Origin: Mobula hypostoma
Taxonomy: Eukaryota
Assembly: GCF_963921235.1 (NCBI RefSeq)
Contig: NC_086097.1
Span: 168,208,001 to 168,272,000 of the forward strand
DNA length: 64,000 nucleotides
Direction of reading: 5' to 3'
Below, piece by piece: positions 8,436 through 61,845 of this stretch (position 1 is its first letter; the number at the start of each line of letters is the position of its first letter). Under the pieces are notes generated by a model. The model did no database searches and was not told the DNA's origin. It worked only from the letters and a program-made list of their open reading frames with translations. The translations under genes were made by a program, and so were the position numbers.

Positions 8436-11400
8436 AGTGGGGTGACTTGAGCTACAGACAGGTAAACAAGGATTGGTAAAGTGCAGGACAACAGGAAGCT
8501 TGAGTCTGCTTTTACAAACTCTCCTTCAGCTATGGTTCTCCTGTTACAGGTGGGCCCTTGGACCTCATGTCCCGCAGGGTGGTGGCAGCCGGCACTTCAC
8601 AGCTAGCACAACAAATTGCCCAGGAGCTAGAGCCCGTCGCTTACGAAAGGGATGACAGCACAGAAGAAGCAAGTGACTCTCAGTCCAAATAAAGACATTC
8701 AGCAGCTAAGCCACAGCAGACAACATGCGGGTGCCAGACTGCTGCCTCGTGGAAACTGTGGATCGGCCAACCGATTGGTCAACTCTCACTGAGGGCTTCA
8801 ACAATATGCAACTTCTATAATGAGTGTTGAACTAATTTAGTTGCCATTTAATGGGGAATTTGTCTTTGGTTAATAGCATCTGGTCAGGTGGAGGCCCTCA
8901 GTCCTACTCATTCAGCTCCATCTACTTCTGCTGAACTAATTATTGTGCACATTTCTAATGCTGAGGACTGAGGACAAATTTCTTCCCCAGAGACGGTGGT
9001 TGGGTTGATGAGGTGGGGGCCGGGTACAGGGAGGATGAGACCGAAAGGACTGGGCAGTTCACTGGTGAAATAAAAAAAATCAAACTGGGCATAGAGCCAG
9101 TGACTTGCCTGATCAGCCAAGTTCGAGCCAATATTTCGACAACTTGTGTTCAAATTGTCCCTGATGCAGCCATTCAAGAGTTGGCAGGCTAGAGTCGACA
9201 GGGTAAGTTTACAGGAGTGAAACTGGTGTTCTAAGAACCTATAAATATTGAGTATCTTCATATTCTCACACACACTAGGTGGCATTTCAGACCATCAAGT
9301 CTGTGCTGGCTCTCTGAGCACTCCCATCAATCTGACTTTCTATTATTTCCCTGCTACTTGGGCTCTCGTCTGTATGTCAGCTCCCCAGAGTCTCCTCTGA
9401 GCCATCTACAGTAGAAGCGATTTACACTTGGTGTTTAACCCTAACAACCTGCACATCGTTAGCACATGCCAATCTTTAAGAAAGGTCTCAGCCCAGAACG
9501 TCCCTCCGCAGATAATGCCTGACCTGCTGAGTTCCTCCAGCATTGTGTGTGTGTTGCTCAAGATCAGCAGATCGCTGAATCTCTTGTCTCATCACTAGTG
9601 TGCAGGAAGAAACCCGAGCACCCAGGGGAAACTCCACACACACAGCAGGCTCAAGCCCAATTCACTGGAGCTGGGTTTTATCTTGAAACAAATAAAAGCC
9701 CTGGAAGAGCTCAGTGGGTCAGACAGCATCCATGGAGAGAGAAACAGAATATAACAATTCACATCAACGATCCTTCTTAGGGACCTGGTCGTCTCTGTTG
9801 ATGCTGCTGGACTTTTCTCAAGGCTTCCAGCATTTTCTGTTTCTGTTTTAGATTCTCGTCATTCGGCTTGAATCATTTTTAGAGACCGATTTCCAGATCA
9901 GGTCCCGCTTTTATCCAAGATTTAGCCATTTGCAAATTGTAAAGAAAATGTGCCCTGCTGCTTATTTTGTTCTTTGTGGTCAGCCGTTGCCCTACAGGTC
10001 ACATCAGGCTTAAAAGTAATGGGAGAGCAAAACAAGCATCAGCCAGCCATCAGCACTTAGACAGTAAGGGTAGGGTATTCTTATTCAGGGTCCTCAGATT
10101 AGGAAAATGTCTTGCAAAATAGGCTTTGAAGGTTCACTTGTCAATGAATCACCTGGAGGTATTGGGACTCGCATTCCAAAAGCGCAGTCTTAAAGGAGGG
10201 AAGAGAGTCCAAAAAGAATTCCCAAGTTTTATGTATCGAGTAGCATGGTTGCCAAAGGTCTGAGAATTACATTTTGTTAATGGCGAAGAGGCCAAGAGCA
10301 GTGGAAGTTAGTGAAGAAGATGAATGATGGTGAGGTTAGTGGATGGTAATGGTTGAGCAGGATCTAAACTCATCTGTTGTTGTTAAAGATAATGCCTCTA
10401 GCCTCTTGGAATTTGTTCACTCATCAACCCGGGCCCCTTATCTTCAAGAGCCAAAACGTTTGAATGGATCTAACCCATTTTCTCTCCTGAGTTTCATTAT
10501 CGTCACTTGAGGGGTTTTGGCTGCAAGGTCTCACAGTCAAAAAAAAATACGGATAACTTTACAATTTAATCATAATTTTAAAAGAGATCTTATTTCAGGG
10601 TTTTACTAGGTCTACAGAAAATGTGACAAAACAATAGAAATAAATTCTGACTGAATTGTTCATGAATAAACAGATCTGTTTTTGTATCAGTTCAATTCTC
10701 TTGCTTATTTAGATACATTTCTACACTTCCATACATTCAGATTCAAGTAGGACATGTGTAGACAGAAGAGATCTAGCTTAATTTGGAATTGTGCTCAGCA
10801 CCAACAGTGTGGGGTCAAGGGCCTGTTCCTGTGCCATACTGCTCTATGTCTATAGCTTTGTGGTGAAAGGGGGAAAGTTTAAGGAGATTCTTGTGGCAAA
10901 GATTTTTTTACACAGAAATTGGGTGCCTAGAACGCAGAGTAAGGGTAAGTGGTGGAAGCAGAAATGACAGCAATGTTTATGAGGTGCTTAGACATTTGAA
11001 CAGGCAAGGAATGAAGGAATATAGACCATCTGTGGGCATTGTGGTCAGCACACTGTACAGTTTCAACAAAATTAAGATATTGCAGCATAAAATATCCCGT
11101 GCCCTTTACACTTGGAATGACAGCCATGCTCAAATCTCACATTGTCCCAGTGAAGCAGTGGTGTACATCACAATTTAATTGTGGGACAGATGGAAGCAGA
11201 TGAGGAAGGAGGTGATTGCTAGGTGGGGTAAAAAGGAAGAGGGGGAAGTTAGATACAGGCTGGTAGGAGATAAGTGAAACCAAATAAGGGAGGGTTGATG
11301 GGGAGATGGAGCCAGGTGAGGTTCCAGCTATCACCTACAACCCATTTCACCCCTCCCTCTCACCTCTTTGTACTGTCTATCTTCCCTCTACAATCAGTTC

Positions 11401-15231: not shown

Positions 15232-18200
15232 TTTTTTTAATACTTAATCACAATTGAAGATGTTCAAAACAATACAAAGGAAATACAACTCCAGGTGGAG
15301 CTCAGACAAAACAAATCAAGAACAAAAAAAAGGCTGCCAGACAATTTACAAGATTAAATAAATAAACTTCCAGGTAAAGAGTTGACACAATAGTGACATC
15401 ACGGAAGCAATGTAAAGTAAAATGAATAAAGAAATCCGGTTAGGCACCACTCATGAGACTAGACAGGTCAAGGTCACTATGTATGTGAAGTAATATGACA
15501 CCGAGCCAGTAAGGGTCCCCATATTCTCTCAAATGTATTCCGTGTATTGGGTTTGTGCAGACGCAGTCTTTCCACTTGTATAATAGACAACATCTCCTTG
15601 AGCCAGTGTGCGAAGGTGGGTGGAGTAGTAGACTTCCAGGTCAGAAGAATAAGTTTCTTAGCCACCACCATTCCTAGATGCAGAGCAGTCTGCATGTCGT
15701 GCGGCAAAGCAAGAGTCTCTGCAGAGCATCCAAAGATGGCGAGGTTGTGATTGGGCTGAATGTCTCTAGAATAGACTTTGAGAGCCACTCAAAAACTGCA
15801 GTCCAAAAGTTGTATAATATCGGGCAAAACCAGAAAAGATGTGCTAGTGAGCCGTCAGCAGAGCGGCACTTATCGCATTCAGGAGAGACAGATGGGAAGA
15901 CGCGATTCAGTTTTGTTTTTGAATAATGTAATCTATGCATCACCTTGTACTGGATTAATCTGTAGCGTGAATTAATAGAACAACAGTGAACCGGGGACAT
16001 TGCCTCCTCCCAAAGTTCCGCTGATATCTCTGAGTTCAAGTCCCGGACCCAAGCTTCCCTAATAAAATCTGTAGAAACCAAAGGAGCAAAGCAATTCACA
16101 AATTTTGATATTAACTGTTTGGAGTCAGGAGGGAGCAAGAGGTTTTCAAGAAAGGGATGGGTGGTGGAAGCAGGCTCGAAGTGTGGGCACTTTTCCTTCA
16201 CGTAGTGTCTGACTTGGAGATAGCGAAAAAAATGTGAATTTGGAAGGTTAAACTTAGTGCTTAATTGTGTGAATGATTCAAACCGGCCGTCGATGTACAG
16301 ATCTAAGAAAGTTTTGGTACCCCTCTCTCTCCAGACTGCAAACACCCCGTCTAATTATCCAGGCTTGAATGAATGATTTTGACAAATGGGAGTGTGTATG
16401 GAAACACTGGGAGTTTGGTGAGCCACTTTTATCTGGTTTAATATTCGTAAAGAATTCTTTAAGGTATAGTTTTGCCGGATTAGCTTGTCTGTTGGAAAGT
16501 GGAAAGCAGGAGAGCAGGAAGTGAAGAATATTTAACAACAGAGGGTTCCAGCTGTAGAACATAGAACATAGAATAGTACAGCACAGTACAGGCCCTTTGG
16601 CCCACAATGTTGTGCCGACCCTCAAACCCTGCCTCCCATATAAGCCCCCACCTTAGATTCCTCCATATACCTGTCTAGTAGTCTCTTAAACTTCACTAGT
16701 GTACCTGCCTCCACCACTGACTCAGGCAGTGCATTCCACGCACCAACCACTCTCTGAGTAAAAAATCTTCCTCTAATATCCCCTTTGAACTTTCCACCCC
16801 TTACCTTAAAGTCATGTCCTCTTGTATTGAGCAGTGGTGCCCTGGGGAAGAGGTGCTGGCTTTCCACTCTATCTATTTCTCTTATTATCTTGTACACCTC
16901 TATCATGTCTCCTCTCATTCTCCTTCTCTCCAAAGAGTAAAGCCCTAGCTCCCTTAATCTCTGATCATAATGCATACTCTCTAAATCAGGCAGCATTCTG
17001 GTAAATCTCCTCTACCCTTTCCAATGCTTCCACATCCTTCCTATAGTGAGGTGACCAGAACTGGACACAATACTCCAAGTGTGGCCAAACCAGAGTTTTA
17101 TAGAGCTGCATCATTACATCGCGACTCTTAAACTCTATCCCTCGACTTATGAAAGCTAACACCCCACAAGCTTTCTTAACTACCCTATCCACCTGTGAGG
17201 CAACTTTCAGGGATCTGTGGACATGTACCCCGAGATCCCTCTGCTCCTCCACACTACCAAGTATCCTGCCATTTACTTTGTACTCTGCCTTGGAGTTTGT
17301 CCTTCCAAAGTGTACCACCTCACACTTCTCCGGGTTGAACTCCATCTGCCACTTCTCAGGCCACTTCTGCATCCTATCAATGTCTCTCTGCAATCTTTGA
17401 CAATCCTCTACACTATCTACAACACCACCAACGTTTGTGTCATCTGAAAACTTGCCAACCCACCCTTCTACCCCCACATCCAGATTGTTAATAAAAATCA
17501 CGAAAAGTAGAGGTTCCAGAACAGATCCTTGTGGGACACCAATAGTCACAATCCTCCAATCTGAATGTACTCCCTCCACCACCACCCTCTGCCTTCTGCA
17601 GGCAAGCCAATTCTGAATCCACCTGGCCAAACTTCCCTGGATCCCCCATGCCTTCTAACTTTCTGAATAAGCCTACCGTGTGGAACCTTGTCAAATGCCT
17701 TACTAAAATCCATATAGATCACATCCACTGCACTACTCTCATCTATATGCCTGGTCACCTCCTCAAAGAACTCTATCAGGCTTGTTAGACACGATCTGCC
17801 CTTCACAAAGCCATGCTGACTGTCCCTGATCAGACCATGATTCTCTAAATGCCTATAGATCCTATCTCTAAGAATCTTTTCCAACAGTTTTCCCACCACA
17901 GACGTAAGGCTCACTGGTCTATAATTACCCGGACTATCCCTACTACCTTTTTTGAACAAGGGAACAACATTCGCCTCCCTCCAATCCTCCGGTACCATTC
18001 CCGTGGACAACGAGGACATAAAGATCCTAGCCAGAGGCTCAGCAATCTCTTCTCTCACCTCATGGAGCAGCCTGGGGAATATTCCGTCAGGCCCCGGGGA
18101 CTTATCTGTCCTAATGTATTTTAACAATTGCAAAACCTCCTCTCCCTTAATATCAGCATGCTCCAGAACATCAACCTCACTCATATTGTCCTCACCATCA

Positions 18201-19997
18201 TCAAATTCCCTCTCATTGGTGAATACCGAAGAGAAGTATTCATTGAGGACCTCACTCACTTCCACAGCCTCCAGGCACATCTTCCCACCTTTATCTCTAA
18301 TCGGTCCTACGTTCACTCCTGTCATCCTTTTTTTCTTCACATAATTGAAGAATGCCTTGGGGTTTTCCTTTACCCTACTTGCCAAGGCCTTCTCATGCCC
18401 CCTTCTTGCTCTTCTCAGCCCCTTCTTAAGCTCCTTTCTTGCTTCCCTATATTCCTCAATAGACCCATCTGATCCTTGCTTCCTAAACCTCATGTATGCT
18501 GCCTTCTTCCACCTGACTAGATTTTCCACCTCACATGTCACCCATGGTTCCTTCACCCTACCATTCTTTATCTTCCTCACGGGGACAAATTTATCCCTAA
18601 CATCCTGCAAGAGATCTCTAAACATCAACCACATGTCCATAGTACATTTCCCTGCAAAAACATCATCCCAATTCACACCCGCAAGTTCTAGCCTTATAGC
18701 CTCATAATTTGCCTTTCCCCAATTAAAAATTTTCCTGTCCTCTTTGATTCTATCCTTTTCCATGATAATTATAAAGGCCAGGGAGCGGTTGTCACTGTCC
18801 CCCAGATGCTCACCCACTGAGAGATCTGTGACCTGACCCGGTTCATTACCTAGTACTAGATCTAGTATGGCATTCCCCCTGGTTGGCCTGTCCACATACT
18901 GTGACAGGAATCCATCCTGGACACACTTAACAAAGTCTGCCCCATCTAAACCCTTGGAACTAATCAGGTGCCAATCAATATTAGGAAAGTTAAAGTCACC
19001 CATGATAACAACCCTGTTATTTTTGCACCTTTCCAAAATCTGCCTCCCAATCTGCTCCTCTGTATCTCTGCTGCTACCAGGGGGCCTATAGAATACCCCC
19101 AGTAGAGTAACTGCTCCCTTTCTGTTCCTGACTTCCACTCATATTGACTCAAAAGAGGATCCTGCTACATTACCCACCCTTTCTGTAGCTGTAATAATAT
19201 CCCTGACCAGTAATGTCACCCCTCCTCCCCTTTTTCCGCCCTCCCCATCCCTTTTAAAGCACTGAAATCCAGGAATATTGAGAATCCATTCCTGCCCTGG
19301 TGCCAGCCATAAAGGTTTTTCTTGGGTCTCAGCACCTCCATATTTCCAGTATGTAAGAGCCCCTGGCAACTGGCATTAGGGGCCACACACACATTAAAGG
19401 TATTAAGTTGGGCAATATTGAGACCCGTGTGACTCTGTACGCGGACGACTACCTTGTCTGTCTAGCCGACCCAGCGGTCTCTATTCCTATCCTACTAGAA
19501 TATATAAATTCCTTCGGGAGTATTTCTAGCTATACCATAAACTGGGGAAAGAGCGAATTCATGCCCTTAGAGGATCAATTTACTGAACACTTCCTGAAAA
19601 AGTTGCCTTTTAGAGTAGAGAAGGACTGTTTCACCTACTTGGGGCAGGTATTGTATTTTTAACTGATTAAGAACCCAAATCATCTTTTCAAATTTAATTT
19701 TATAGAATCATTAGAAAAACTCAAAACAAATATCGAGTCCTGAAGGATACTTCCCTTGTCCGTGATTGGACGGGTAAATGCGATTAAAATGGTGAGCCTA
19801 CCCAGGTTTCTATATCTTTTTCAAAACCTGCCTATATACTTAAATACATCCTTTTTGAACTTGACTCTATCCTATTGCCCTTTGTGTGGGGCTACAAATC
19901 ACACAGGATATCAAAGGCTCACCTACACAAACCTCTTAAGAAGGGCGGTCTTGGTCTGCCAAATTTCAAACATTACTAACTCCAGGGCTCTTACATA
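15232..19997 (-). mobile_element. L1/Tx1-clade LINE, 5'-truncated with an inverted 5' segment (19368-19997 on +), interrupted by CR1
   Basis: Minus-strand L1 ORF2 C-terminus (FFRYLQVRH, QYKVMHRLHY, CDKC...HLFWFC zinc knuckle). Plus-strand RT segment (TLYADD, GRVNAIKMVSLPRFLYLFQNLP). T-tract at 15231-15238. 11-bp TSD at 15221-15231 and 19998-20008. Confidence 0.85.
16557..19308 (-). mobile_element. Young 5'-truncated CR1 LINE (APE C-terminal half + RT + 3' tail), a few frameshifts
   Basis: Long ORFs 17546-19138, 16986-17630 and 16622-16996 with MGDFNFP, LDLVL, KSPGPDGI, NYRPVSLTS, DFSKAFDKVPH, GVPQGSVL, FSDD, TRGH. (AGAACAT)n tail at 16557-16575. Confidence 0.95.
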
Positions 19998-20415
19998 ATG
20001 TTCTCCATATTTATTGCTTAATTATTTATTTTTATTTTTCCCTTTTGTATTTGCACAAATTTGTCGTTTTTTTGCACATTGTCCTTTTGGATGCATTTTT
20101 TAAAATTGATTTTATTGTGTTTCTTTGATTTCCTTCGTATGCCTGCAAGTAAACGAATATGACATATATGATAATAAATTTACTTTGAACTTTGATGTTC
20201 TAAGTGTCTCCAGCAATATGTTTCTGACTCAAGTACGAAGTTCTTCCTTTTAATTACACTGTGTTGCAAGCAGGAAGCTGGCTTCTTGGAAGTGAATGAG
20301 TCAGGATTTCCCATTATTTCGGAGTTGAAGCTGCGCTGTGGCAAGTTCGCAGTAAGGACCTGGCGAAGCAAGTGAAATTACGTTGCGAATTGTTTTCATC
20401 ACATCGTCCCAAGGT

Positions 20416-22125
20416 ATGGACGGGGATGATCCCTGCACATCCAGCCAGACTGAAACGGATCGGGACGAAACGGAGGGAGAGAATTCGCCTAGAATTAAAA
20501 TTAAAAGGAGTTCAGAAACCTCCCTGCCCTCTGGCCGCCACTTGGTTACATTCCGCAGAGGGAAGGCGGAGGCAACTCTCGCAGATAATGTCGCGGCGGC
20601 CCGAGCTTTGCAGAATATGGTCAGAACCAGCCTGGGACCCAAGGGCACCGTGAAAATGTTAGTGTCGGAGGCGGGCGACATCAAAATAACCAAGAGCGGA
20701 GGGCTTCTGCTGCGGAGCATGAGACGGCAGCAGCCCGCCGCCACCTTCATCGCCCAGACAGTACTATCCATGAGTGATAGAACTGGAGACGGCGCCACGT
20801 CCGCTGTGCTATTGGTCGGGGAGATGCTGAAGGAGGCCGAACGCTATGTCTCGCAGGGAGTCCACCCCAGGGTCATCGTGGAAGGGCTGAAAGCGGCCAA
20901 GAAGGAAGCGATCTTTTGCCTTGATGAGCTGTGGGAGGACGTGGACAAATCCATTATGCAGAAGGTGGCTCGGACCTCGATCGGCACCAAGGTCTGCGCG
21001 GAGCTGGCGGAGGTTCTAGCCGAGCCGGTGGCGACCGCGGTGAATTCAGTCTCTCAATCGAGGGAGCCTGTCGACCTGAATCGGGTGCAGCTGGTGGCGA
21101 TGGGGCACGAGATGGAGCAGGATGTCAGGCTGGTTAAGGGGATTGTCCTGGAACAAAGGGCCCGCCATCCCGACAGGAAGTGGCGAAAGGAGGATGCATT
21201 TGTCCTCGCCTTGAACGTGGCCTTGAAGCTCGCGAATCGCAAGGGCAGCTCCCGCCACTTCTGCGTGGACGCGGGGGAGAAGCAGGGGTCGGCGGAGGCG
21301 GAGTGGAGGGTAATCCGGGAGAATGTGCAGAAGATCATAGCGCTGAAGTGCGATGTGTGCGGCACCTCCAATAAAAGCTTCATTGTGGTCAACCAGAAGG
21401 GGCTGGATACAATGGCTCTTGGGGCATTTGCTAGCGAGGGGATAATGGCGCTGTTGAATGTCAAAAAGCACGACGTGGAGATGCTGCCCCTCGGCTGCGG
21501 GGGTCGGGTGGTGAGCTCCATGCAGGATCTGAGCGCAGAGTGCCTGGGGCACGCAGGGCTGGTGTACCAGGAGACCCAGGAAGCGAGCACCTACACCTTC
21601 TTCGAGCAGTGTGACGACCCCCGGTGTGTCACCCTGCTCATCAAGGACTCCAATGAGCATACTCTCGCCCAGATCAAGGAGGCCGTCTTGCATGGCATGC
21701 GGGCGGTTAAGAACAGCATCGACGACGGCAGCGCCATGCCCGGGGCCGGGGCGGTGGAGCTGCGCATCAGAAACCAGCTGGTCCACCACAGGGATACCGA
21801 GATGAAGGGCGCGGCCCTGCTGGGGTTCCAGGCTTTCGCCGACGCCATCCTGACTATCCCAAAGACGCTGGTTGAGAACGCGGGCCTTGACCCCTACGAG
21901 GTCGTGTGCAAAGCTCTAGAAGCGGAGGAGCAAACCACCATCCCCGTGGGGATTGACCTGTCCTCGGGTGAATTAGTTGATGATTGGCAGACTCCCGTCT
22001 GGGACAATAGCCTCGTCAAACACCAGCTGATACACACCAGCACTGCCATCGTCTGCAATCTTCTTTTAGTGGATGAGATTGTAGAGACAGGTAAAACACT
22101 GACGCCAGTGGATTTGGCCAGATAG
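20416..22125 (+). CDS. CCT6-like: Intronless, divergent T-complex protein 1 subunit zeta (CCT6)-like chaperonin, 569 aa (probable retrogene)
   Basis: Single uninterrupted ORF from the first in-frame ATG (20416) to TAG (22123-22125). CCT6-type segments: LGPKGTVKMLVSEAGDIK, ARTSIGTKVCAELAEVL, ARHPD, NQKGLD, CLGHAGLVY, VTLLIK, HTLAQIKEAV, AVKNSIDDG..PGAGAVE, QAFADA, VWDN..VKHQLIH, NLLLVDEI. Confidence 0.9.
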   Translation: MDGDDPCTSSQTETDRDETEGENSPRIKIKRSSETSLPSGRHLVTFRRGKAEATLADNVAAARALQNMVRTSLGPKGTVKMLVSEAGDIKITKSGGLLLRSMRRQQPAATFIAQTVLSMSDRTGDGATSAVLLVGEMLKEAERYVSQGVHPRVIVEGLKAAKKEAIFCLDELWEDVDKSIMQKVARTSIGTKVCAELAEVLAEPVATAVNSVSQSREPVDLNRVQLVAMGHEMEQDVRLVKGIVLEQRARHPDRKWRKEDAFVLALNVALKLANRKGSSRHFCVDAGEKQGSAEAEWRVIRENVQKIIALKCDVCGTSNKSFIVVNQKGLDTMALGAFASEGIMALLNVKKHDVEMLPLGCGGRVVSSMQDLSAECLGHAGLVYQETQEASTYTFFEQCDDPRCVTLLIKDSNEHTLAQIKEAVLHGMRAVKNSIDDGSAMPGAGAVELRIRNQLVHHRDTEMKGAALLGFQAFADAILTIPKTLVENAGLDPYEVVCKALEAEEQTTIPVGIDLSSGELVDDWQTPVWDNSLVKHQLIHTSTAIVCNLLLVDEIVETGKTLTPVDLAR

Positions 22126-22484
22126 TCAAAGTCGCCTTCATTGCAGTATATCGTCTCACAATTTAGACGGGGGCCATTATACCCATTGCGCTTGTGTCGG
22201 CTCAGATTGTTCCTATCATCTCCCCATGTCTCTCCTCCAGCACTGACACAAGCGTAGAAGTCAAGCATCTTGCCAGCGTTCTTTTGGGATATGGGTGGGT
22301 GGGGAAGCAAAACCTCTGGAGAATCCACACAGTGTGTAAACTCCTTACAGACAGCACCCAAAGTCAGGATCGAACCCTGGTTTCTGAAGCTGTACCACCC
22401 CAAGTGATTGATTTTACTTTTGCAACAGAGGTGGGTAGGATTTGATTAAAAGGACATAAAATAATTCAGGTGCAAGGAAGAGTA

Positions 22485-22547
22485 AATAAACATCACACAC
22501 TGTTTTGGAATGTATGGATGAGATTGAAGAAACTAAACCTGAATAAA
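22485..22547 (+). terminator. Candidate polyadenylation signals for the CCT6-like gene
   Basis: AATAAA at 22485-22490 and 22542-22547, about 360-420 nt after the stop codon. Confidence 0.4.
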
Positions 22548-23224
22548 TGCTATCAAAATGCTATCAATATGTCTCAATGTCCTTCCTAAACACCATCATT
22601 ACAGTGCATGGTAAGAGTAGTCACTGACGTGGAGTGTGGAATTGCAGCCACAGTCCCCATGATAGTACTGTGAAACTCACCGCAAGTGAAATGGCTGCAT
22701 GCAAGTTAAATGCAGAATTATGATTCTGATTGTGCACAGCCTATGTAACTAGATTAATAGTCTATAGATTTAGATTACTGTAATCGTGAAATTCCTGGAT
22801 TATTTTTAAAACCCGCTTGAACAAAAGAGGTTACTGCTCTCATCAGTTGAAATGTCCCTGTAATCATTGATCTCTCTTTAAGAAGACTATGCATTACTAA
22901 ATGACAATAAAAGGAGACTGCGTGGCCTCATAATCTAATCTAAATAATCTAAATCTTGTTGTTACATGCTCTCATTATTTATTGTTATTTATTTATATTA
23001 GTATTTGCAGTTTGTTGTCTTTTCTACTCTTGCTCTTTCATTGATCCTGCTTACAATGACTATTTGCTGAGTATACCCATAGGAAAAATAATCTCAGGGT
23101 TGTATGCAGTGACATGTATGTTCTCTGATTATGAATTTTACTTTGACTTTTGAACTTTGAAAAACCCAAATGGCTTTCTGATTTATTTTTCAATAAGGGA
23201 ATCTGCCATCCTTACCCCTTCTGG

Positions 23225-35639: not shown

Positions 35640-38600
35640 GATTAAGAGCTTACAAAAGTTGTTTGGAGTAGGTAGTTTGTTGGGCAGATGGTCTACAGTC
35701 AAGTGGGAGGCTTTTAAAGGTGAGATTTGCGAGTTTAAGGTCGGCATATTCCTGTTAAGAGTCAAACACAAGGCTAGCAGGAATAAGAAAACCTTGAAAA
35801 TGAGGGAGACTGAGGCCCTGGCAAGGCAAAAGAAGATGGCATAGGTCAGGTACAGGCGATGGGGATCAAGTGAATCCTGGGAGGAATATAGGGGATGTAA
35901 AAGTGTTCTCAAAAAGTAAGTCAGGAAGGAAAAATGGGAACACGAAATAACTTTGGCAGAAAAGATTAAGGAAAATCCAAAGAATTTTACAAGTCTATGA
36001 AGGGAAAAAAAGTAACACTAGAGAGAATAAGGTCTCTCAGAGACTAGGGGACACACTTGTGTGGAGCCACAGGAGATGGGCAAGGTCCTAAATGAATTTT
36101 TCTCCTCAGTTTTTACAGTGGAGGGAAACATAAAGACTTTGGAACTAGGAAAACTTAAATCGAGAGATCTTGGGAAAATTCACCATTACAGTAGAGAAGG
36201 TGCTGAATGTCTTAAAAGGCACAAAGACCATAAAACCATAAGACATAGGAGCAGAATGCGGTCATTTGGCCCATGGCATCTGTTCTGTCATTCTATAGCA
36301 AGGGGGTTTCGTCTTTTATGTTACTGCGGAGGCTAATTAAAATGGCGTCTTTGTTATGTTATAATCGGGAATGCTTCTTTGTTATGCTAAACGCTGAGAA
36401 AGTTTGCGCTAGCAGCTTGTTTTGGTTTAGAGTGTGATAAGAAATATGTTATTAACCAATTGGGATAGCTGTTATGGTTTTGGTGTATTTGAAGATACTG
36501 TATGTGCGGGGTTTTGGGGCAGAAGGCGGGAGAGCGAGGCAGAGGATGGACGAGGTGCTGTGATGTCCGCTAACGGGGTCGGACCCCAAGGAGGGCGTTC
36601 GGTGAGGAGACGGAGACGAACTCGTGTGGAGCGTCTGGTCGACCACTGTTGTTGGTCCCAGGCAGCCGGTCAAGGTGATCTGAGGGGTTGCAGGGTGAAG
36701 AAGAAGGTCCTTGAGCTCCAACTGTTTTGTGCACGAAGAGATTGAACTTTGATAAGTGTGGTGCCTTTTATTTTCCTTTTATATTTTATTCTCTCTTAAT
36801 TATATAGTTCCAGTAATATCTATAAACTGTAAATCATTTGATCGTATCTGGTGTATTGTCTGTTATTTGGGCGGGGTGGGGTGCATCTCACAGCATCCAC
36901 ACAATCTAATTACGCAGTCTGGTGGGGCCGAGGCTGTTTCCCTAGACGACAGCGAGCCGACCAACCCTGAGGCTGATTTATTATCCTTCTCAGCCCCATT
37001 CTTCTACCTTCCTCTTGTAACCCTTACTGGCTACCTAACATTCATACTTACCTTTTCTTTCCTTATTGTTTTTCTTAGTATTTTCTGTTGTTTTTTTAAA
37101 AGCTTCACTATCCTCTAGCTTATCACTAATTTTTTGCTATATTACATGCCCTCTCTTTTGCTTTTGTGCAGTCTTTGACTGCCTTGTCAGCCACAGTTGC
37201 CTCATCCTCCCTTTAGAATACTTCTTCATCTTTGGGATGTATCTAAACCTCCCGAATTGCTCCCAGAAACTCCAGCTATTGATGTATGCCATGCAGCCAT
37301 GAAGGTTGACAAATCTCCAGAGCCTGACAACTGTTCTTATACAAAAACACTGTGGAAGCTAAACAAGAAATTACAGGAACCTTTGCTGAAATATTTACAT
37401 CATTCTTAGCCACAGGTGTGGAGCTGGAGGGTGGCAAATTTGGTGCTTTTATTTATGGACTGCAAAGAAACGCCTGGGAATGATAGGTTTAAAATTGATG
37501 ATAGGTAAGTGACTGGAGATGATTCTGAAGGATATGCTATACATCCATCTGGAAAGACAGGACTTAATCAGAGGTCATCAGCATGGCTTTGTGCATGGAA
37601 GATCATACCTTACAAACTTGATTAGAGTTTTTTTTTGATGAAGCATCCAAGAAAGGCCTTTGATATGGTTCCATGTGGTAGGTTGCTCTAGACGTTTAGA
37701 TCGCATGGAATCTAGGGAGAGCTGGCTAATTGGATACACAATTGACTTGATGTTAGAAAGCAGACCTGTGACCAATGGTGTGCCTCAGGGAGCAGTACTG
37801 GGACCATTGTTGTTCAGCGTCAACATTAACAATTTGGATAAGAACGTTAGTACATTTCCAAACAAACTAAAACAGGTAATATAATGGACAATGAAGGAGA
37901 TTATCACAATTTACAAAGGGATCCTGATCAGCTGAGTGAGTGGGCTGAGGAATGGCAAATAGAGTTTAATTCAGATAAAGGTGAGGTGATGCATTTTGGA
38001 AAGTCAAATCCAAGTAGGACTTCCACAGTGAATGACAGGGCTGTGAGTGTGTTGTAGAACTGGGGAATCTTAAGATTGCAAGTACATGGTTCACTGAAAG
38101 TTGGAGTCACAGGTGAACAAGGTGGTGAAGAAGGCTTTTAGGATGCTGGCCTTCTTAAGTCAGGGTATTGAGTATAAAAGTTGGGAGTTCATGATGCCCT
38201 TTTACAGGACACTGGTAAGGCCAGACTTGGAGTATTGCTTTCCATTTTGATTGTCCTGCTGGAGGAAAGATGATATTAAACTGAAAATAGTGCAGCAAAG
38301 ATTTACAAGGATGCTGCCAGGGTTTGAGGGATGGAGTTGTATGGAGAGGTTGGACAGGTGAGGACTTTGTTCCTTTGGAGACTGAGGGGTGACCTTACAG
38401 AGGTATATGAAATCATGAGGGGCATAGACAGGGTGAATGTACACAGCCTTTTTCCTAGAGTTTGGGAATCAAGAACTAGAGGACATAAGTTTAAGATCGG
38501 AGGGTAAAGATTGAAGAAAAACTTGAAGGGCAGCCTTTTTACACAAAGGTTGGTATCTATGTGGAACCAGCTGCCGACTTTTAAAAGACAGTTGGATCAG

Positions 38601-56026: not shown

Positions 56027-56083
56027 ATGCGAGAGATTGTTCACATTCAGGCGGGACAGTGCGGGAACCAGATCGGGAGCAAG
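56027..56083 (+). CDS. TUBB6: Beta-tubulin exon 1 (MREIVHIQAGQCGNQIGSK)
   Basis: ATG at 56027; GT donor at 56084; MREI autoregulation motif. Confidence 0.97.
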
Positions 56084-56394
56084 GTGGGATAAATCCCGAG
56101 CTGCTAACTTCTGTGCCGTGTCCCGGGAACGAACGCGTTCAGTATCGGGGTATTCACTGAACTTCCTCCCAAACTCTTCAAACCTGTAGCAGGGGAGAAG
56201 AAATCTCTCAAAACCACTTGTTGTTTTTGGGAGGGGCTTTAGATTTTCCGTTAGGAATTTTGGGCGATTTATACACTCTAATTCTGGAGTTGGGCCAGAC
56301 CCCGCGCCTGTCTGGTGATTAGACAGGGAGCGACTTGTCTCCATACTCACAGACTGAAATCCAATTTATTCTCTCTCTCTTTACTTTGCTGTAG

Positions 56395-56503
56395 TTTTGG
56401 GAGGTGATTAGCGACGAGCATGGCATCGATCCCGGGGGCAATTACATTGGAGACTCGCGCTTGCAACTGGAGAGAATCAACGTGTACTACAACGAAGCGA
56501 TGT
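56395..56503 (+). CDS. TUBB6: Beta-tubulin exon 2
   Basis: Pyrimidine tract and TAG acceptor; [42 protein letters not shown] donor. Confidence 0.97.
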
Positions 56504-56626
56504 GTGAGTTTCTGGTGGGGAGGGGGAATTCTTGCAACGGGTGGGGGGAGGTGGCTGGTGTTTCCGCCGGCTGTTGTCTTTCAGTATGTGACTCTCACTA
56601 ACATGGCAAATCGACTAACCTTGCAG

Positions 56627-56737
56627 CCCAGAAGTATGTTCCCAGAGCGATCCTCTTGGACTTGGAGCCGGGGACGATGGACAGTGTTCGCTCGGGGAGT
56701 TTGGGACAACTCTTCAAACCGGATAATTTCATATTTG
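56627..56737 (+). CDS. TUBB6: Beta-tubulin exon 3
   Basis: CTAAC branch-like site and TTGCAG acceptor; [42 protein letters not shown] donor. Confidence 0.97.
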
Positions 56738-58034
56738 GTGAGTCTCCTGGGTGTGTCGACCTTTTGAAGGATGCCCGCTGTCCCAGATCCTGTCGATTTC
56801 CTTTCGCTTGAAACTTGATCTGCACGAGAAGGGGTTAATATTCCGAGTGTTCGGCCTGGGCTATCCCAAAATGTAAAACAAGGCCGGCGCAGTGATGTAA
56901 GAGCTGCCAGACAAGTGCAAAATTTGCTTTCCAACAAATAATTCGCAGACCCTTTGTGTTAATGGGGTACATTGACGTTGGGCAGAGTAACGTTTCCTGC
57001 ATGTGCTGTTGTGCTGGCTTGTGATGCTATGGCTGTGTCATCTTGGAGAACCCTTGTACAGACCCTTCTCAGCTTAACAGTGACTGGGGAGCCACTAGGT
57101 TTTGAGACAGGAGTTCTTTATAACTTGCTGCAAATCAAAACTGACTTGCCAGCTCATTGACTGCTCTTCTGCCTTTGGATAGGGAGTTTTCCAATGTTTG
57201 TGTACTGTGACGCTGAAAGGCAGTCACAGGCTTTCCACAGGCTTTCTTTCCTTGTCTATATTACATTAGAAGGTTTCAACTGGGCCCTCTTGTTCTGAGA
57301 TGAATGGAGGGAGGAGAAGGTCTGTGGATTCCCTCTGATCTCACAGGTGGCTTCTCTGAGAGTGAACAGTAAAGAGGCCTGGCTGGAATAAGTCCTTTGG
57401 GAAAAAGAGCTTACTGACTAATGAAGGGCTGGGATGTCACAAAGTTGCTGCAGAGGACAGAAAAGTGAGAACATTGGGGGGATGTGTGTCTAACTGAGAT
57501 TAGGCCGGGAAACCAAACCTAGACAAGTGTCCTTCCTTGCACCATGTGTAGCAACAGCTTAGGATGGACGACAGGTTCTAGTTAACCAAAGATCCTACAT
57601 GTTATCCCTAGAGGAACTCTGTTTTGTTTAGCCGTATACATGTGTATGGGTGAATGACAATTAAACTTGAAATGGCCGATGGTGTGATCAGAACAAAAAT
57701 ATATCAAACCATTGGAGGAACTCAGTGGACCAAGAGTGTCCGGGGCCGCAAAGAGGTGGTGGGCAGCTTCAGCCGAGAGCCTACACGATGAGGTAGAATC
57801 CAGCTGTGAGTGATGGTCTTTAGTTGCCTGATCTTTCTAGGTCACTCAACACTCCGCATCCTGGAGTTCTGTTTTGGTCTGTGCACCTTCCATTACTCCA
57901 ACTTGTGGTCACCATGCTGGAGATGTGGGTAACTAAAAGTGCTTTTAAATTTGGCAGATTCAATGCAGAATGTACAACTATATTTTTATAGTTTGCTAAG
58001 AACCTAATTTAGAATCTGAGACGCAAATCATTTT

Positions 58035-58440
58035 GAACATAGAACAATACAGCCCACAACGTTTTGCTGACCTATATAAGTATACTCCATGATCGATCTA
58101 ACTCCTCCTTCCTATGTTGCCAATAGCATTCCATTTGTTTTTTTCCATCTGTGTGGCCATCTAAGAGTCTTGTAAATGTCCCTAATATATCTGCTTCTAC
58201 CACTACCCGTGGCAGTGTGTTCCAGGCACACACCACTCTCTGTGTATAAAAACCTACCTCTCACATCTCTCCTAAACTTTCCTCCACTCACTTTTAAAGG
58301 ATGTCCTATCTTATTACCCATTGCCATCCTAGGAAAAGGTGCTGGATTAGCTATGCCTCTCATAATCTTACACACCTTAATAAGTCTCCTCTCATCCTCC
58401 TTCACTCCAAAGAAAAAAGCCTAGCTTACTCAACCTTGCA
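58035..58440 (-). mobile_element. CR1 3' fragment in tubulin intron 3
   Basis: GHPLKVSGGKFRRDVRGRF peptide and CR1 UTR. Confidence 0.8.
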
Positions 58441-60744
58441 TTTTGTTAAGATTTCAAAGTAGGTTTACTGAATACAAAGTAAAGCTGAGATGAACCTTGC
58501 ATGTAATGAGGCAAAAAGAAATACATCTCTAGCATTTTGCATTTGAGTTCACGTAATGTTGCTTTTTCTCTTATCTCCCTGGGCTCTGGAAGTGCAAGCC
58601 CATTCCTGTTTTGAACACAGTATCATTGGTTAGCTGACTTCGATGGAAACAGTTTGGCTGTCATGCTCTTTGTCAGCCAGTGAGACTTTGCAGATGGTGG
58701 AGGGAGGGGTTCTGATCTGATTTACGGCAGTGGGATTGAAGTCTCAAGAGGTGGAGTCCTGTTCCTCTGCTGCCTTCAAATATAGGCATAATGTAGAAGA
58801 CAAAATGACACGATTTCAAAGAAGTGGTTCAGCTTAGATAAAATATTTCTTTTGCTTGCATTCAAGAACTGAGAGTCTTTGACCCGAGTCTGTGCAGTTT
58901 GTTTTTGAGAGAATCTAATTTTAAACACTGTCAGATATAAGTGCTCCATTTCTAACGGATCTCCCTGTTTCTGTGGAGTCATTTAGAAGAGATGTGGGAT
59001 CATCTCCAATGTACCGTACGTAAACCAGATGGCCTGAGAACTGTCTGCTTACAAGAACTTACTCTCAGAAGTCCCCCCACCCCTGCTGATCTCCAAACAG
59101 AGATAAACTCTGGATAAAGTCATCAAATTGTTGCACAGAAGGAAACCATTTGGCCCATCGGATCTATGATGTCCTCTGAGAGACAATTGTACCAGTTCTA
59201 TTCCCCTGCCTATTATTCTCTAGTGCCAGTTTAATTTGATTTAAAAGACACTGATTCAGTTTCCAGCTTTCCTGCAGATAATCAATTCCAAATTTCAACT
59301 ACTCCCGGAATTAAATGGTTTATTTCTAATATTCCTTGTGCCGTTTGCCTCAGGCTGTTACCTCTGTTCCACACACAGAAGTACATCTCCTCTTTCACAA
59401 GCAGTGCCGGAGAGTATAAGCAAGCACGTGTTCTTGGCCGGACTTCGTTCAACAAGATGATGCAGCAGCTGGATTTCTGGTCGGCCGATCGCCCTTTTGA
59501 AAAAGCTGGCTGCTAACCAGTGAGGCTGATGCAGCCAGTTTGGAATTGTTCAGCTTATTCAGCAGTGTGGCTGTAAGCTTCATTCAGCTCACACTGCAGT
59601 TTACTTTCAGGGTCACAGATAATTCGGGATGAGCTGAAAAGGCGTGTAACAACACACTGAAAGAAAACCAGCCACCAGTTCTCATTAATCCATTTGTTCC
59701 ACTGCTGGGTTGGAGTGGGTTTATTTTAAAACACGTGGTATGCATTAATTCAAGGGACATGGGCTTCATAGGACAAACCAGCATTGAATTGTACATGGAG
59801 ATACAAGAGATGCCACAATCTGGAGCAACTCATCTGCTGGAAGAACTCAGTGGAGACCCAATTCAGGGTTTTGACCTACAATGTCGCTGGTTCGTTTGCC
59901 CCCACAGATGCTGTTTGACCTACCAAGTTGCTGTAGCAGATTGTTTGTTACATTTAACTGCCCATCCCTAGATACCTTTGAGAAGGTGGTGATGAGCTAC
60001 CCTCTTTAACCACTGCAGCCCTTGGAGAGATCTCCGGTATTTTGACCCAGTGACACTGAAAGAACAGCAATATATTTCCAGGTCGGAATGGTGAGTGGCC
60101 TGTAAGGCAACTTCCATATGGTGGGAAGCAATGTTGCAAGATGAACCTCTGTTCCCACAGGGTGTTTCTGGGATCTGGAGGAATATGCTGGAAAGTGGAA
60201 GCATGGAGATGCATCAGTTGCCAGTACTGCCTCACGGCTCTAGGAATCTGGGTTCAATTCTGACCCCTGTGCACAGCTTGGGCATTCTACTTGTGACCAC
60301 ATGAGTTTTACCTGGATGTTTCTGTTGCCTCTCAGATCTCAAAAGTTTGGTGGAAAGAATATGCTTTCTGCCTTTGACAGATTTCAGGGCCTTTATGACA
60401 TCCAGTTCATTCATTCTGTTTAATGCTTTATCCTCTACCAATCTCAGCATTTTAATATTTAGAAAAGATTTTCAAAACCAACTAATAATAAAAGTCCTTA
60501 AAATGTGTAGTGATGGTTTCAAGGCAAGAGAATGTGAAGATATGTAAGGGGTACAAATGAATACTTGTTCGAGGTGATCATTAATTCCTGACTCTTTTTA
60601 CTTCTGTTCATTGTTTATATAAGATTAAAATGCAATTGACAATCTTTAAAACATGTGTTTCTTTCTGCATTATGGACTAAAAACTCCTGGAAATTTTATG
60701 TAGCAGTTCAATCAGCACTTGTGATTTTAAATGTCGATCTGTAA

Positions 60745-61845
<1,101 letters not shown>

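What the first reader, a model, noticed from the sequence alone, without database searches (positions are those of the whole stretch)
20416..22125. Intact, intronless, highly diverged CCT6 (TRiC zeta) paralogue: candidate lineage-specific chaperonin-like retrogene
Seen: a 569-codon ORF with no stop, frameshift or intron, colinear with CCT6 along its whole length. By eye only about half of the residues match the vertebrate CCT6A sequence I recall. Known: canonical CCT6 is multi-exon and very strongly conserved, and chaperonin offshoots with new roles exist (CCT8L retrogenes, BBS6/10/12, testis CCT6B). Inference: this much divergence with the frame still open, among heavily decayed neighbours, points to a retrocopy kept under selection for a new or specialised function.
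Basis: partly seen in the sequence, partly recalled or inferred. Interest (0 to 1): 0.85.

Follow-up and report, generated by a model that had tools for sequence, protein, structure and literature searches.

The report
Ancient shark-ray chaperonin CCT6 retrogene
An intact, intron-free second copy of the protein-folding gene CCT6, with relatives in sharks, rays and a chimaera, has lost two ATP-splitting residues in rays and likely serves as a swap-in subunit of the cell's tubulin- and actin-folding barrel.

Summary
In detail: window 20416-22125 (+) is an unbroken 569-codon, intronless CCT6-like ORF, 48% identical to canonical CCT6, which sits elsewhere in the genome in 14 exons. It is not a young or narrowly lineage-specific copy. 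Orthologues occur in 12 of 23 chondrichthyan species seen, including a chimaera, so it is likely over 400 million years old, and trees reject orthology with mammalian CCT6B. It folds like TRiC zeta (TM 0.89). Sharks keep the catalytic aspartates and an ~80% conserved apical domain; rays lost both aspartates, and stingrays/devil rays also remodelled the substrate-binding region. Purifying selection is clear back to the stingray split but is not detectable on this species' own terminal branch (13 replacement: 3 silent). Transcription is likely, but a probable full-length transcript in shark embryonic fin buds argues against strict testis specificity. Best reading: a hydrolysis-dead variant subunit for the CCT6 slot of TRiC (ring incorporation untested). 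The same genome holds an intronless CCT8L that groups with crocodilian and mammalian CCT8L, so that family is likely not mammal-specific. Auto-annotated as 'zeta-like' in databases; not found described in the searched literature.

The parts
20416..22125 (+). CCT6-like (here CCT6L) single-exon ORF, 569 aa + TAG
   Evidence: AlphaFold2 model of residues 46-569 pLDDT 86, TM 0.89 to human TRiC zeta
20416..20547 (+). 44-residue acidic/Ser-rich N-terminal extension, shared with the stingray orthologue only; first ATG in a strong Kozak context (G at -3 and +4)
   Evidence: (5 differences in 44 residues vs Hypanus); translation of it is inferred
20548..20550 (+). position of the start Met used by sawfish, skate and shark orthologues; here ACA (Thr)
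20695..20697 (+). Ser94 in place of conserved Asp59 of the TKDG motif (human CCT6A numbering)
20785..20802 (+). phosphate-binding loop GDGATS (canonical GDGTTS; Asp kept, Thr92 to Ala)
21454..21471 (+). apical basic motif RRAKRR replaced by LNVKKH
21691..21693 (+). His426 in place of conserved Asp393 (aligns with residue 393 of the Thermococcus thermosome alpha chain)
   Evidence: catalytic role of this Asp is recalled
20356..20415 (+). probable short 5' untranslated region: contigs of three runs from three studies begin at 20356, 20360 and 20376
   Evidence: weak hint; runs are only guessed to be RNA
22126..22860 (+). probable 3' untranslated region, with AATAAA/ATTAAA hexamers at 22445, 22485, 22542 (and 22906 just beyond)
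8504..8689 (+). open frame holding the last coding exon of the upstream IMPA2-like gene (context, not part of the finding)
   Evidence: IMPA2 label from synteny, recalled
56027..61845 (+). downstream four-exon beta-tubulin gene, TUBB6-like (context)
   Evidence: followed by AFG3L2-like and PRELI-family genes; isotype label recalled

Best explanation
This is an intact, intronless CCT6 paralogue shared with sharks, rays and a chimaera that likely arose by retroposition, is likely transcribed, and likely encodes a hydrolysis-dead variant subunit that would take the CCT6 slot in some TRiC/CCT rings. Shown: intact frame, loss of all introns, one clade of orthologues, chaperonin fold (predicted), loss of Asp59 and Asp393 equivalents in rays. 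Inferred: the CCT6 slot tolerates a subunit that binds nucleotide but does not split ATP, so a second gene could drift in its equatorial (ring-to-ring) surface while keeping the apical face; in sharks it would act as a near-normal subunit with altered ring contacts, and in rays, most of all stingrays and devil rays, the remodelled lid and substrate groove would change which clients or anchors that ring binds. Tissue is unresolved: low or moderate somatic expression is likely, testis enrichment possible.
For: Intact orthologues in 12 of 23 chondrichthyan species seen, one clade at 100 SH-aLRT (11 rows). Window vs Hypanus: 67 differences, no indel, changes more conservative than 400 of 400 neutral simulations at each of two settings, and avoiding sites invariant in six other family members (15/232 vs 46/289, p=0.0009). 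Hydrophobic core kept at 122 of 133 columns, Gly/Pro 31 of 39, but invariant charged residues only 29 of 57. Only a 2-aa deletion and 1-aa insertion, no BBS-type inserts; stem-loop KMLVS..GDI and C-terminal LLVDEI strand kept (their role in ring contacts is recalled). Family-diagnostic changes avoid the apical domain (2 of 33, p=0.0007); sharks keep 79-81 of 87 conserved apical sites. Mutating CCT6's active site has little effect on CCT activity or yeast viability (PMC9704529 passages) and catalytic-Asp mutant subunits still assemble and fold substrate (PMC5413064 section). A CCT6 paralogue entering TRiC has precedent (CCT6B; bioRxiv 2024.11.19.624414 passages). Transcription.
Against: No test of ring incorporation was possible. 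The window protein has lost 55 of 154 near-invariant CCT6 sites (sharks 16-20, CCT6B 0-4) and keeps only 46 of 87 conserved apical sites, far more than any known incorporated isoform; it falls below the CCT zeta cut-off (542 vs 587 bits). Window-vs-Hypanus changes do not avoid canonical CCT6-conserved sites (26/238 vs 33/273, p=0.78). Against a close relative: 17 replacement and 9 silent changes, dN/dS 0.6-0.8, not different from 1; the window's own branch has 13:3. In PMC5413064 the CCT6 hydrolysis mutant had the weakest folding of the eight variants. No orthologue record was seen for 11 of 23 species.
Confidence: 0.5

Rival explanations
1. It has left the ring and works like the BBS/CCT8L class: a chaperonin-fold monomer or member of a small assembly complex with its own clients, at least in rays.
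For: Same signature as described for CCT8L and BBS proteins: fast evolution and altered hydrolysis motifs (PMC2846930 passages and section 12). Lid identity only 35% and apical 50% to canonical CCT6 in the window protein; new 44-aa N-terminal extension in stingrays and devil rays.
Against: Shark members keep an apical domain as conserved as invertebrate canonical CCT6 (79-80% vs 76-78%) and both aspartates; no large insertions. The published contact-position table could not be read.
Confidence: 0.25
2. It is a sperm-specific TRiC subunit, a convergent counterpart of mammalian CCT6B, used for spermiogenesis or flagellar anchoring in these internally fertilising fishes. This is a narrower version of the best explanation.
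For: CCT6B and CCT8L2 are testis genes (PMC2846930); TRiC is tethered in mammalian sperm tails through CCT3 and CCT6 apical domains (PMC12701526 part 1). Shark CCT6L shows E-M/L-K at the three helix positions where CCT6B shows acidic/medium/Lys and CCT6A D-A-K. CpG-rich ORF, observed/expected 0.79 vs 0.19 in canonical CCT6 exon matches. Fast evolution.
Against: A transcript in a bamboo-shark embryonic fin-bud assembly has the best hit and score expected of full-length CCT6L (686 bits; calibration 666-693). Four listed runs in each of three studies hold the stretch at equal share (tissue unknown, RNA a guess). The TUBB6-like exon is just as CpG-rich (0.77).
Confidence: 0.3
3. Functional in the ancestor and in sharks, but now under relaxed selection in devil rays and drifting toward a pseudogene.
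For: 13 replacement vs 3 silent changes on the window's branch, dN/dS 1.4-1.8, not different from 1; ancestral start Met lost; 55 of 154 near-invariant sites lost.
Against: Relative B's branch shows 4:6, dN/dS 0.2-0.3 (p 0.02-0.07); its contig covers the ORF without a gap; no stop where about 3 are expected since the Hypanus split (P about 0.04, indels not counted). Counts are small; positive selection would look the same.
Confidence: 0.15
4. It is a proteostasis adaptation to the high urea content of cartilaginous-fish tissues: a broadly expressed subunit that keeps TRiC working in denaturant.
For: Found only in chondrichthyans among the 120 listed of 913 profile hits; likely somatic expression. 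Urea retention in these fishes is recalled knowledge.
Against: Purely correlative; trees favour an origin before the chondrichthyan stem; fast drift is unexpected for a housekeeping adaptation.
Confidence: 0.06

Closest known systems
CCT6/CCT6A (TCP-1 zeta), canonical TRiC subunit
   Same: Parent gene; same fold (TM 0.89), colinear, keeps LGPKG, GDG, PGAGA and WD nucleotide-pocket motifs.
   Different: Single coding exon vs 14; 48% identity; Asp59 and Asp393 lost; RRAKRR and lid remodelled; ray-shark identity 59% vs 93% for the canonical gene.
Mammalian CCT6B (zeta-2)
   Same: Second CCT6 gene beside a conserved one; similar substitutions at substrate-binding positions in shark members.
   Different: Not orthologous (AU p=0.010 and 0.025); CCT6B has 14 exons, 79-83% identity to canonical and 0-4 near-invariant sites changed, and is testis-restricted.
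CCT8L1/CCT8L2 retrogenes
   Same: Intronless, fast-evolving CCT retrogene with altered hydrolysis motifs; an apparent CCT8L orthologue lies in this same genome.
   Different: Derived from CCT8, not CCT6; far more diverged from its parent.
BBS6/MKKS, BBS10, BBS12
   Same: Chaperonin-fold offshoots with degenerate ATPase sites.
   Different: CCT8-derived with insertions thought to block ring formation (PMC2846930); CCT6L has none and is much closer to its parent.

Membership tests
CCT zeta equivalog (TIGR02347) | score above curated cut-off 587.15 bits | tested here: not met
   window 541.9; Hypanus 550.5; sawfish 667.9, skate 602.2 and three sharks 752-761 pass; canonical 916
CCT zeta equivalog (TIGR02347) | group II chaperonin three-domain fold | tested here: met
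   predicted model pLDDT 86, pTM 0.84; TM 0.89, rmsd 3.1 to 7nvn chain z
CCT zeta equivalog (TIGR02347) | nucleotide-pocket motifs LGPKG, GDG, PGAGA, WD | tested here: met
CCT zeta equivalog (TIGR02347) | hydrolysis residues Asp59, Thr92, Asp393 | tested here: not met
   S, A, H in the window; both Asp lost in all 5 batoids and altered (E, G) in the chimaera; kept in all 5 sharks; role of the residues recalled
CCT zeta equivalog (TIGR02347) | D/A/K at the helix substrate-binding positions (PMC2846930 Table 6) | tested here: not met
   G/A/S in the window; E/M/K or E/L/K in sharks
CCT zeta equivalog (TIGR02347) | incorporation into the 16-subunit TRiC ring | not testable with these tools
   needs biochemistry; contact table S6 unreadable
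CCT6B | descent from the mammalian CCT6A/6B duplication | tested here: not met
   AU p=0.010 (LG+G4, 21 rows) and 0.025 (PMSF, 17 rows)
CCT6B | testis-restricted expression | tested here: inconclusive
   no tissue-labelled data; probable transcript in shark fin buds
CCT8L / BBS chaperonin-like | origin from the CCT8 lineage | tested here: not met
   zeta 542 bits vs theta 183
CCT8L / BBS chaperonin-like | degenerate ATP-hydrolysis site with Gly-Pro kept | tested here: met
CCT8L / BBS chaperonin-like | insertions interfering with ring formation (BBS) | tested here: not met
functional retrogene | parental introns all absent, parent elsewhere in genome | tested here: met
functional retrogene | purifying selection | tested here: met
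   window vs Hypanus and deeper; terminal branch inconclusive
functional retrogene | transcribed and translated | tested here: inconclusive
   contigs in 4 of 4 laid runs, RNA status a guess; shark transcript matched by score only; no peptide data
processed pseudogene | stops, frameshifts, neutral decay | tested here: not met

The most novel reading that the evidence does not exclude
Two retrogenes, CCT6L and CCT8L, arose before sharks and bony vertebrates split and replace the two adjacent low-ATPase subunits (CCT6, CCT8) to build a second kind of TRiC ring for sperm of internally fertilising vertebrates. Bony vertebrates lost CCT6L, mammals re-invented it as CCT6B, and rays have pushed it to a hydrolysis-dead, remodelled subunit that may anchor the ring rather than fold with it.
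Probability: 0.15. Interest if true: 0.82.

Novelty: new variant of a known kind. Interest (0 to 1): 0.56.

Why it matters
TRiC's eight-subunit order is treated as fixed, and the only vertebrate variants in the papers read (CCT6B, CCT8L) were called mammal-specific. An independent CCT6 paralogue kept across cartilaginous fishes, with a natural series from catalytically intact (sharks) to hydrolysis-residue-free and apically remodelled (rays), would show that the CCT6 slot has been duplicated and specialised more than once. It gives ready-made material to test what the low-ATPase half of the ring is for, and whether axoneme-tethered TRiC tracks internal fertilisation, an open question raised in PMC12701526. 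The ray CCT8L would also move the origin of that family back from early mammals to early jawed vertebrates.

Tried and rejected
No RNA holder listed as such (all 'RNA?' or '?'); this is no evidence either way. In one search three runs have no cover at 20218-20331; two of them have 26 and 36 loose letters at that end, which could be a splice or an indel, so the 5' end is not fixed; no credible splice joint touched the ORF among those shown. The careful 43-row tree did not finish; the quick tree is reported, and it joins the chimaera with rays, likely by long-branch pull. First dN/dS count (8) treated two changes in codon 498 separately; corrected to 17:9. The Hypanus record's 68-residue upstream extension is rejected as conserved coding: the window has stops and frame breaks there. 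CIDE-N search gave no hit on this contig (absence not shown). Catshark tissue-atlas supplement unreadable; contact-residue Table S6 unreadable; one supplement opened was irrelevant. Both may bear on tissue and ring-contact claims. No complex prediction was run: chaperonin pairs would tend to pass by likeness to solved rings. Literature searches for a description found none relevant: 0 papers; 0; 0; subscription journals are largely not covered. Earlier scan findings: nothing.

Full report
Observation. The frame at window 20416-22125 (+) is open for 569 codons. It is a single Cpn60_TCP1 domain whose best subunit model is CCT zeta at 542 bits, under the curated cut-off of 587 and far above other CCT subunits. 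Identity to a canonical ray CCT6 is 256 of 529 positions, with one 2-residue deletion and one 1-residue insertion. The first 44 residues are an extension shared only with the stingray orthologue; the Met at which other orthologues start is ACA here. A protein identical to another gene of this genome is labelled Mobula hypostoma by the tools, so the window is very likely from a devil ray.

Retro-origin and setting. The genome holds a canonical CCT6 on another contig in 14 exon matches over about 40 kb. Neither indel lies at an exon junction, as expected if the copy came from a spliced mRNA (inference). The ORF is intergenic, about 12 kb after the last exon of an IMPA2-like gene and 34 kb before a TUBB6-like gene, followed by AFG3L2-like and PRELI-family genes (gene labels rest on Pfam hits plus recalled human synteny). 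A Pfam scan of the genome (55 matches, best candidates only) showed one other full-length intronless CCT gene, a CCT8-like ORF of 563 aa on contig C12.

Age and distribution. 'Zeta-like' records exist for Hypanus (88% identical), Pristis (69%), Leucoraja (60%), three sharks (58-59%), further skates and sharks and Callorhinchus. In all, 12 of the 23 chondrichthyan species for which I saw any CCT6-family record have one; the other 11 may be unannotated or lost. Eleven full-length members form one clade (SH-aLRT 100, stem about 0.6 changes per site; quick tree of 43 rows; the partial C. punctatum record and a Logan fragment were left out) and share indels and 33 diagnostic residues. The chimaera member dates the gene to before the chimaera-elasmobranch split, over 400 million years by recalled dating. 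AU tests reject grouping with mammalian CCT6B (p=0.010, 0.025) and also with chondrichthyan CCT6 (p=0.007, 0.011), which favours an origin on the jawed-vertebrate stem and loss in bony vertebrates. This is not secure: the stem is long, no lamprey, hagfish or amphioxus CCT6 was available, and at 20 gnathostome-derived sites the family has the gnathostome state 8 times, the invertebrate state 6 times and another 6 times. No bony-vertebrate member was among the 120 listed of 913 profile hits, which does not show absence.

Selection. The family evolves much faster than its parent (ray vs shark 59% against 93%). Between the window and Hypanus, 67 residues differ with no indel; neutral simulation expects about 3 stops (none in about 4% of runs), the observed changes are more conservative than all 400 simulations at each of two transition biases, and they avoid sites invariant in six other members (p=0.0009). 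They do not avoid sites conserved in canonical CCT6 (p=0.78), so the constraint is no longer the parent's. At short range the signal is weak: of 31 differences to relative B's contig 29 were listed, 26 in the ORF, 17 replacement and 9 silent; 13:3 on the window's branch, 4:6 on B's. Relaxed or positive selection in this species cannot be excluded.

Anatomy of the protein. The model is confident (pLDDT 86) and matches TRiC zeta chains (TM 0.89); it was built with an alignment rich in canonical CCT6, so this shows compatibility, not proof. The core is kept (122 of 133 hydrophobic columns) while invariant charged residues are halved (29 of 57). Pocket motifs remain, but Asp59 and Asp393 are lost in all five batoids and altered in the chimaera, and kept in all five sharks. 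Family-wide changes concentrate in the equatorial domain and avoid the apical one (2 of 33); the apical domain then erodes stepwise, 79-81 of 87 conserved sites kept in sharks, 68 in sawfish, 58 in skate, 46 in the window.

Expression. Four of four laid runs from four studies carry a contig across the ORF at depth 22-258; three start within 20356-20376 and two run about 720 bases past the stop. The runs' contig sets are 69-307 million letters against a 3.5-billion-base genome, which fits RNA or capture better than whole-genome DNA (inference); the tool calls RNA a guess, so this is a weak hint. Independently, the supplement of PMC7932699 lists two CCT6-labelled transcripts in a stranded mRNA assembly of bamboo-shark fin buds; one shares its best hit with gene model g16760 (the C. 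punctatum CCT6L record) and scores 686. My calibration reproduces the canonical model's 915 exactly and gives 666-693 for full-length shark CCT6L and 460-475 for the partial model (table: 478). The match is by score, not sequence, and pooled deep sequencing can assemble a weak transcript, but it argues against strict testis specificity.

Mechanism. CCT6 and CCT8 are neighbours in the ring and CCT6 makes a like-with-like contact across rings (PMC9117761 passages); both hardly turn over ATP and tolerate active-site mutation (PMC9704529 passages), and catalytic-Asp mutants still assemble (PMC5413064 section 20). A paralogue with an intact fold, pocket and (in sharks) apical face but altered equatorial surface fits a swap-in subunit best (0.5). 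The ray proteins are diverged enough that exit from the ring is a real rival (0.25). The sperm-specific reading is a subset of the first (0.3).

Comparison and novelty. It works like CCT6B or CCT8L but belongs to neither. PMC2846930 (passages, section 12) did not mention sharks and called both mammal-specific. The ray CCT8-like gene groups with crocodilian and mammalian CCT8L (SH-aLRT 100, in species order), shares an AKKS tail motif, and grouping with the ray's own CCT8 is rejected (p=0.0002); long branches and biased composition weaken this. Seven literature searches found no description of the chondrichthyan gene. Papers seen: PMC2846930 (passages, one section, supplement list), bioRxiv 2024.11.19.624414, PMC9704529, PMC9117761, PMC8176918, PMC13043943 (passages), PMC5413064 (passages, one section), PMC12701526 (first part of the text), PMC7932699 (passages, two sections, supplement rows and two files), PMC3428356 (abstract), PMC11979771 (listing only).

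Verdict. A real, old, constrained retrogene family that databases label automatically but that appears undescribed: a new variant of a known kind, interest 0.56.

Noticed in passing
L002:1441-3132 (G000:C12:106360389-106362080, +): Intronless 563-aa CCT8-like gene; groups with sawfish, crocodilian and mammalian CCT8L, suggesting CCT8L is not mammal-specific as published. The phosphate loop reads GDGRAT.
   Followed up: partly
L020/L024, G000:C2:235413293-235414494: Degraded, apparently processed copy resembling CCT7, with a stop; subunit label by eye against the C9 locus.
   Followed up: no
L028, G000:C63:16659875-16660222: Intronless, diverged HSP60-like stretch in a 388-aa open frame, apart from the multi-exon gene on C18.
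   Followed up: no
L054/L055, G000:C1 about 168148001-168168000: Exact (100%) tandem duplication with a period of about 11,150 bases, 60 kb upstream of the ORF; recent duplication or assembly artefact.
   Followed up: partly
G000:C1:168403462 and 168448350: Two equal-scoring first-part matches to the PRELI family 45 kb apart; possible local duplication.
   Followed up: no
window 8700-56000: No CIDE-N match on this contig, although CIDEA lies between IMPA2 and TUBB6 in human (recalled); CCT6L occupies that interval here.
   Followed up: partly
window 36431-37000: Small CpG-rich patch not repeated among held sequence; looks like a mobile-element remnant, not identified.
   Followed up: no
window 17546-19003 (-): 485-aa open piece of a LINE-type reverse transcriptase frame 1.4 kb upstream of the ORF (label by eye).
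   Followed up: no
PMC7932699 supplementary file 3, gene model g23757.t1: A second CCT8-labelled bamboo-shark gene model at 611 bits against 974 for the other; possibly the shark CCT8L.
   Followed up: no
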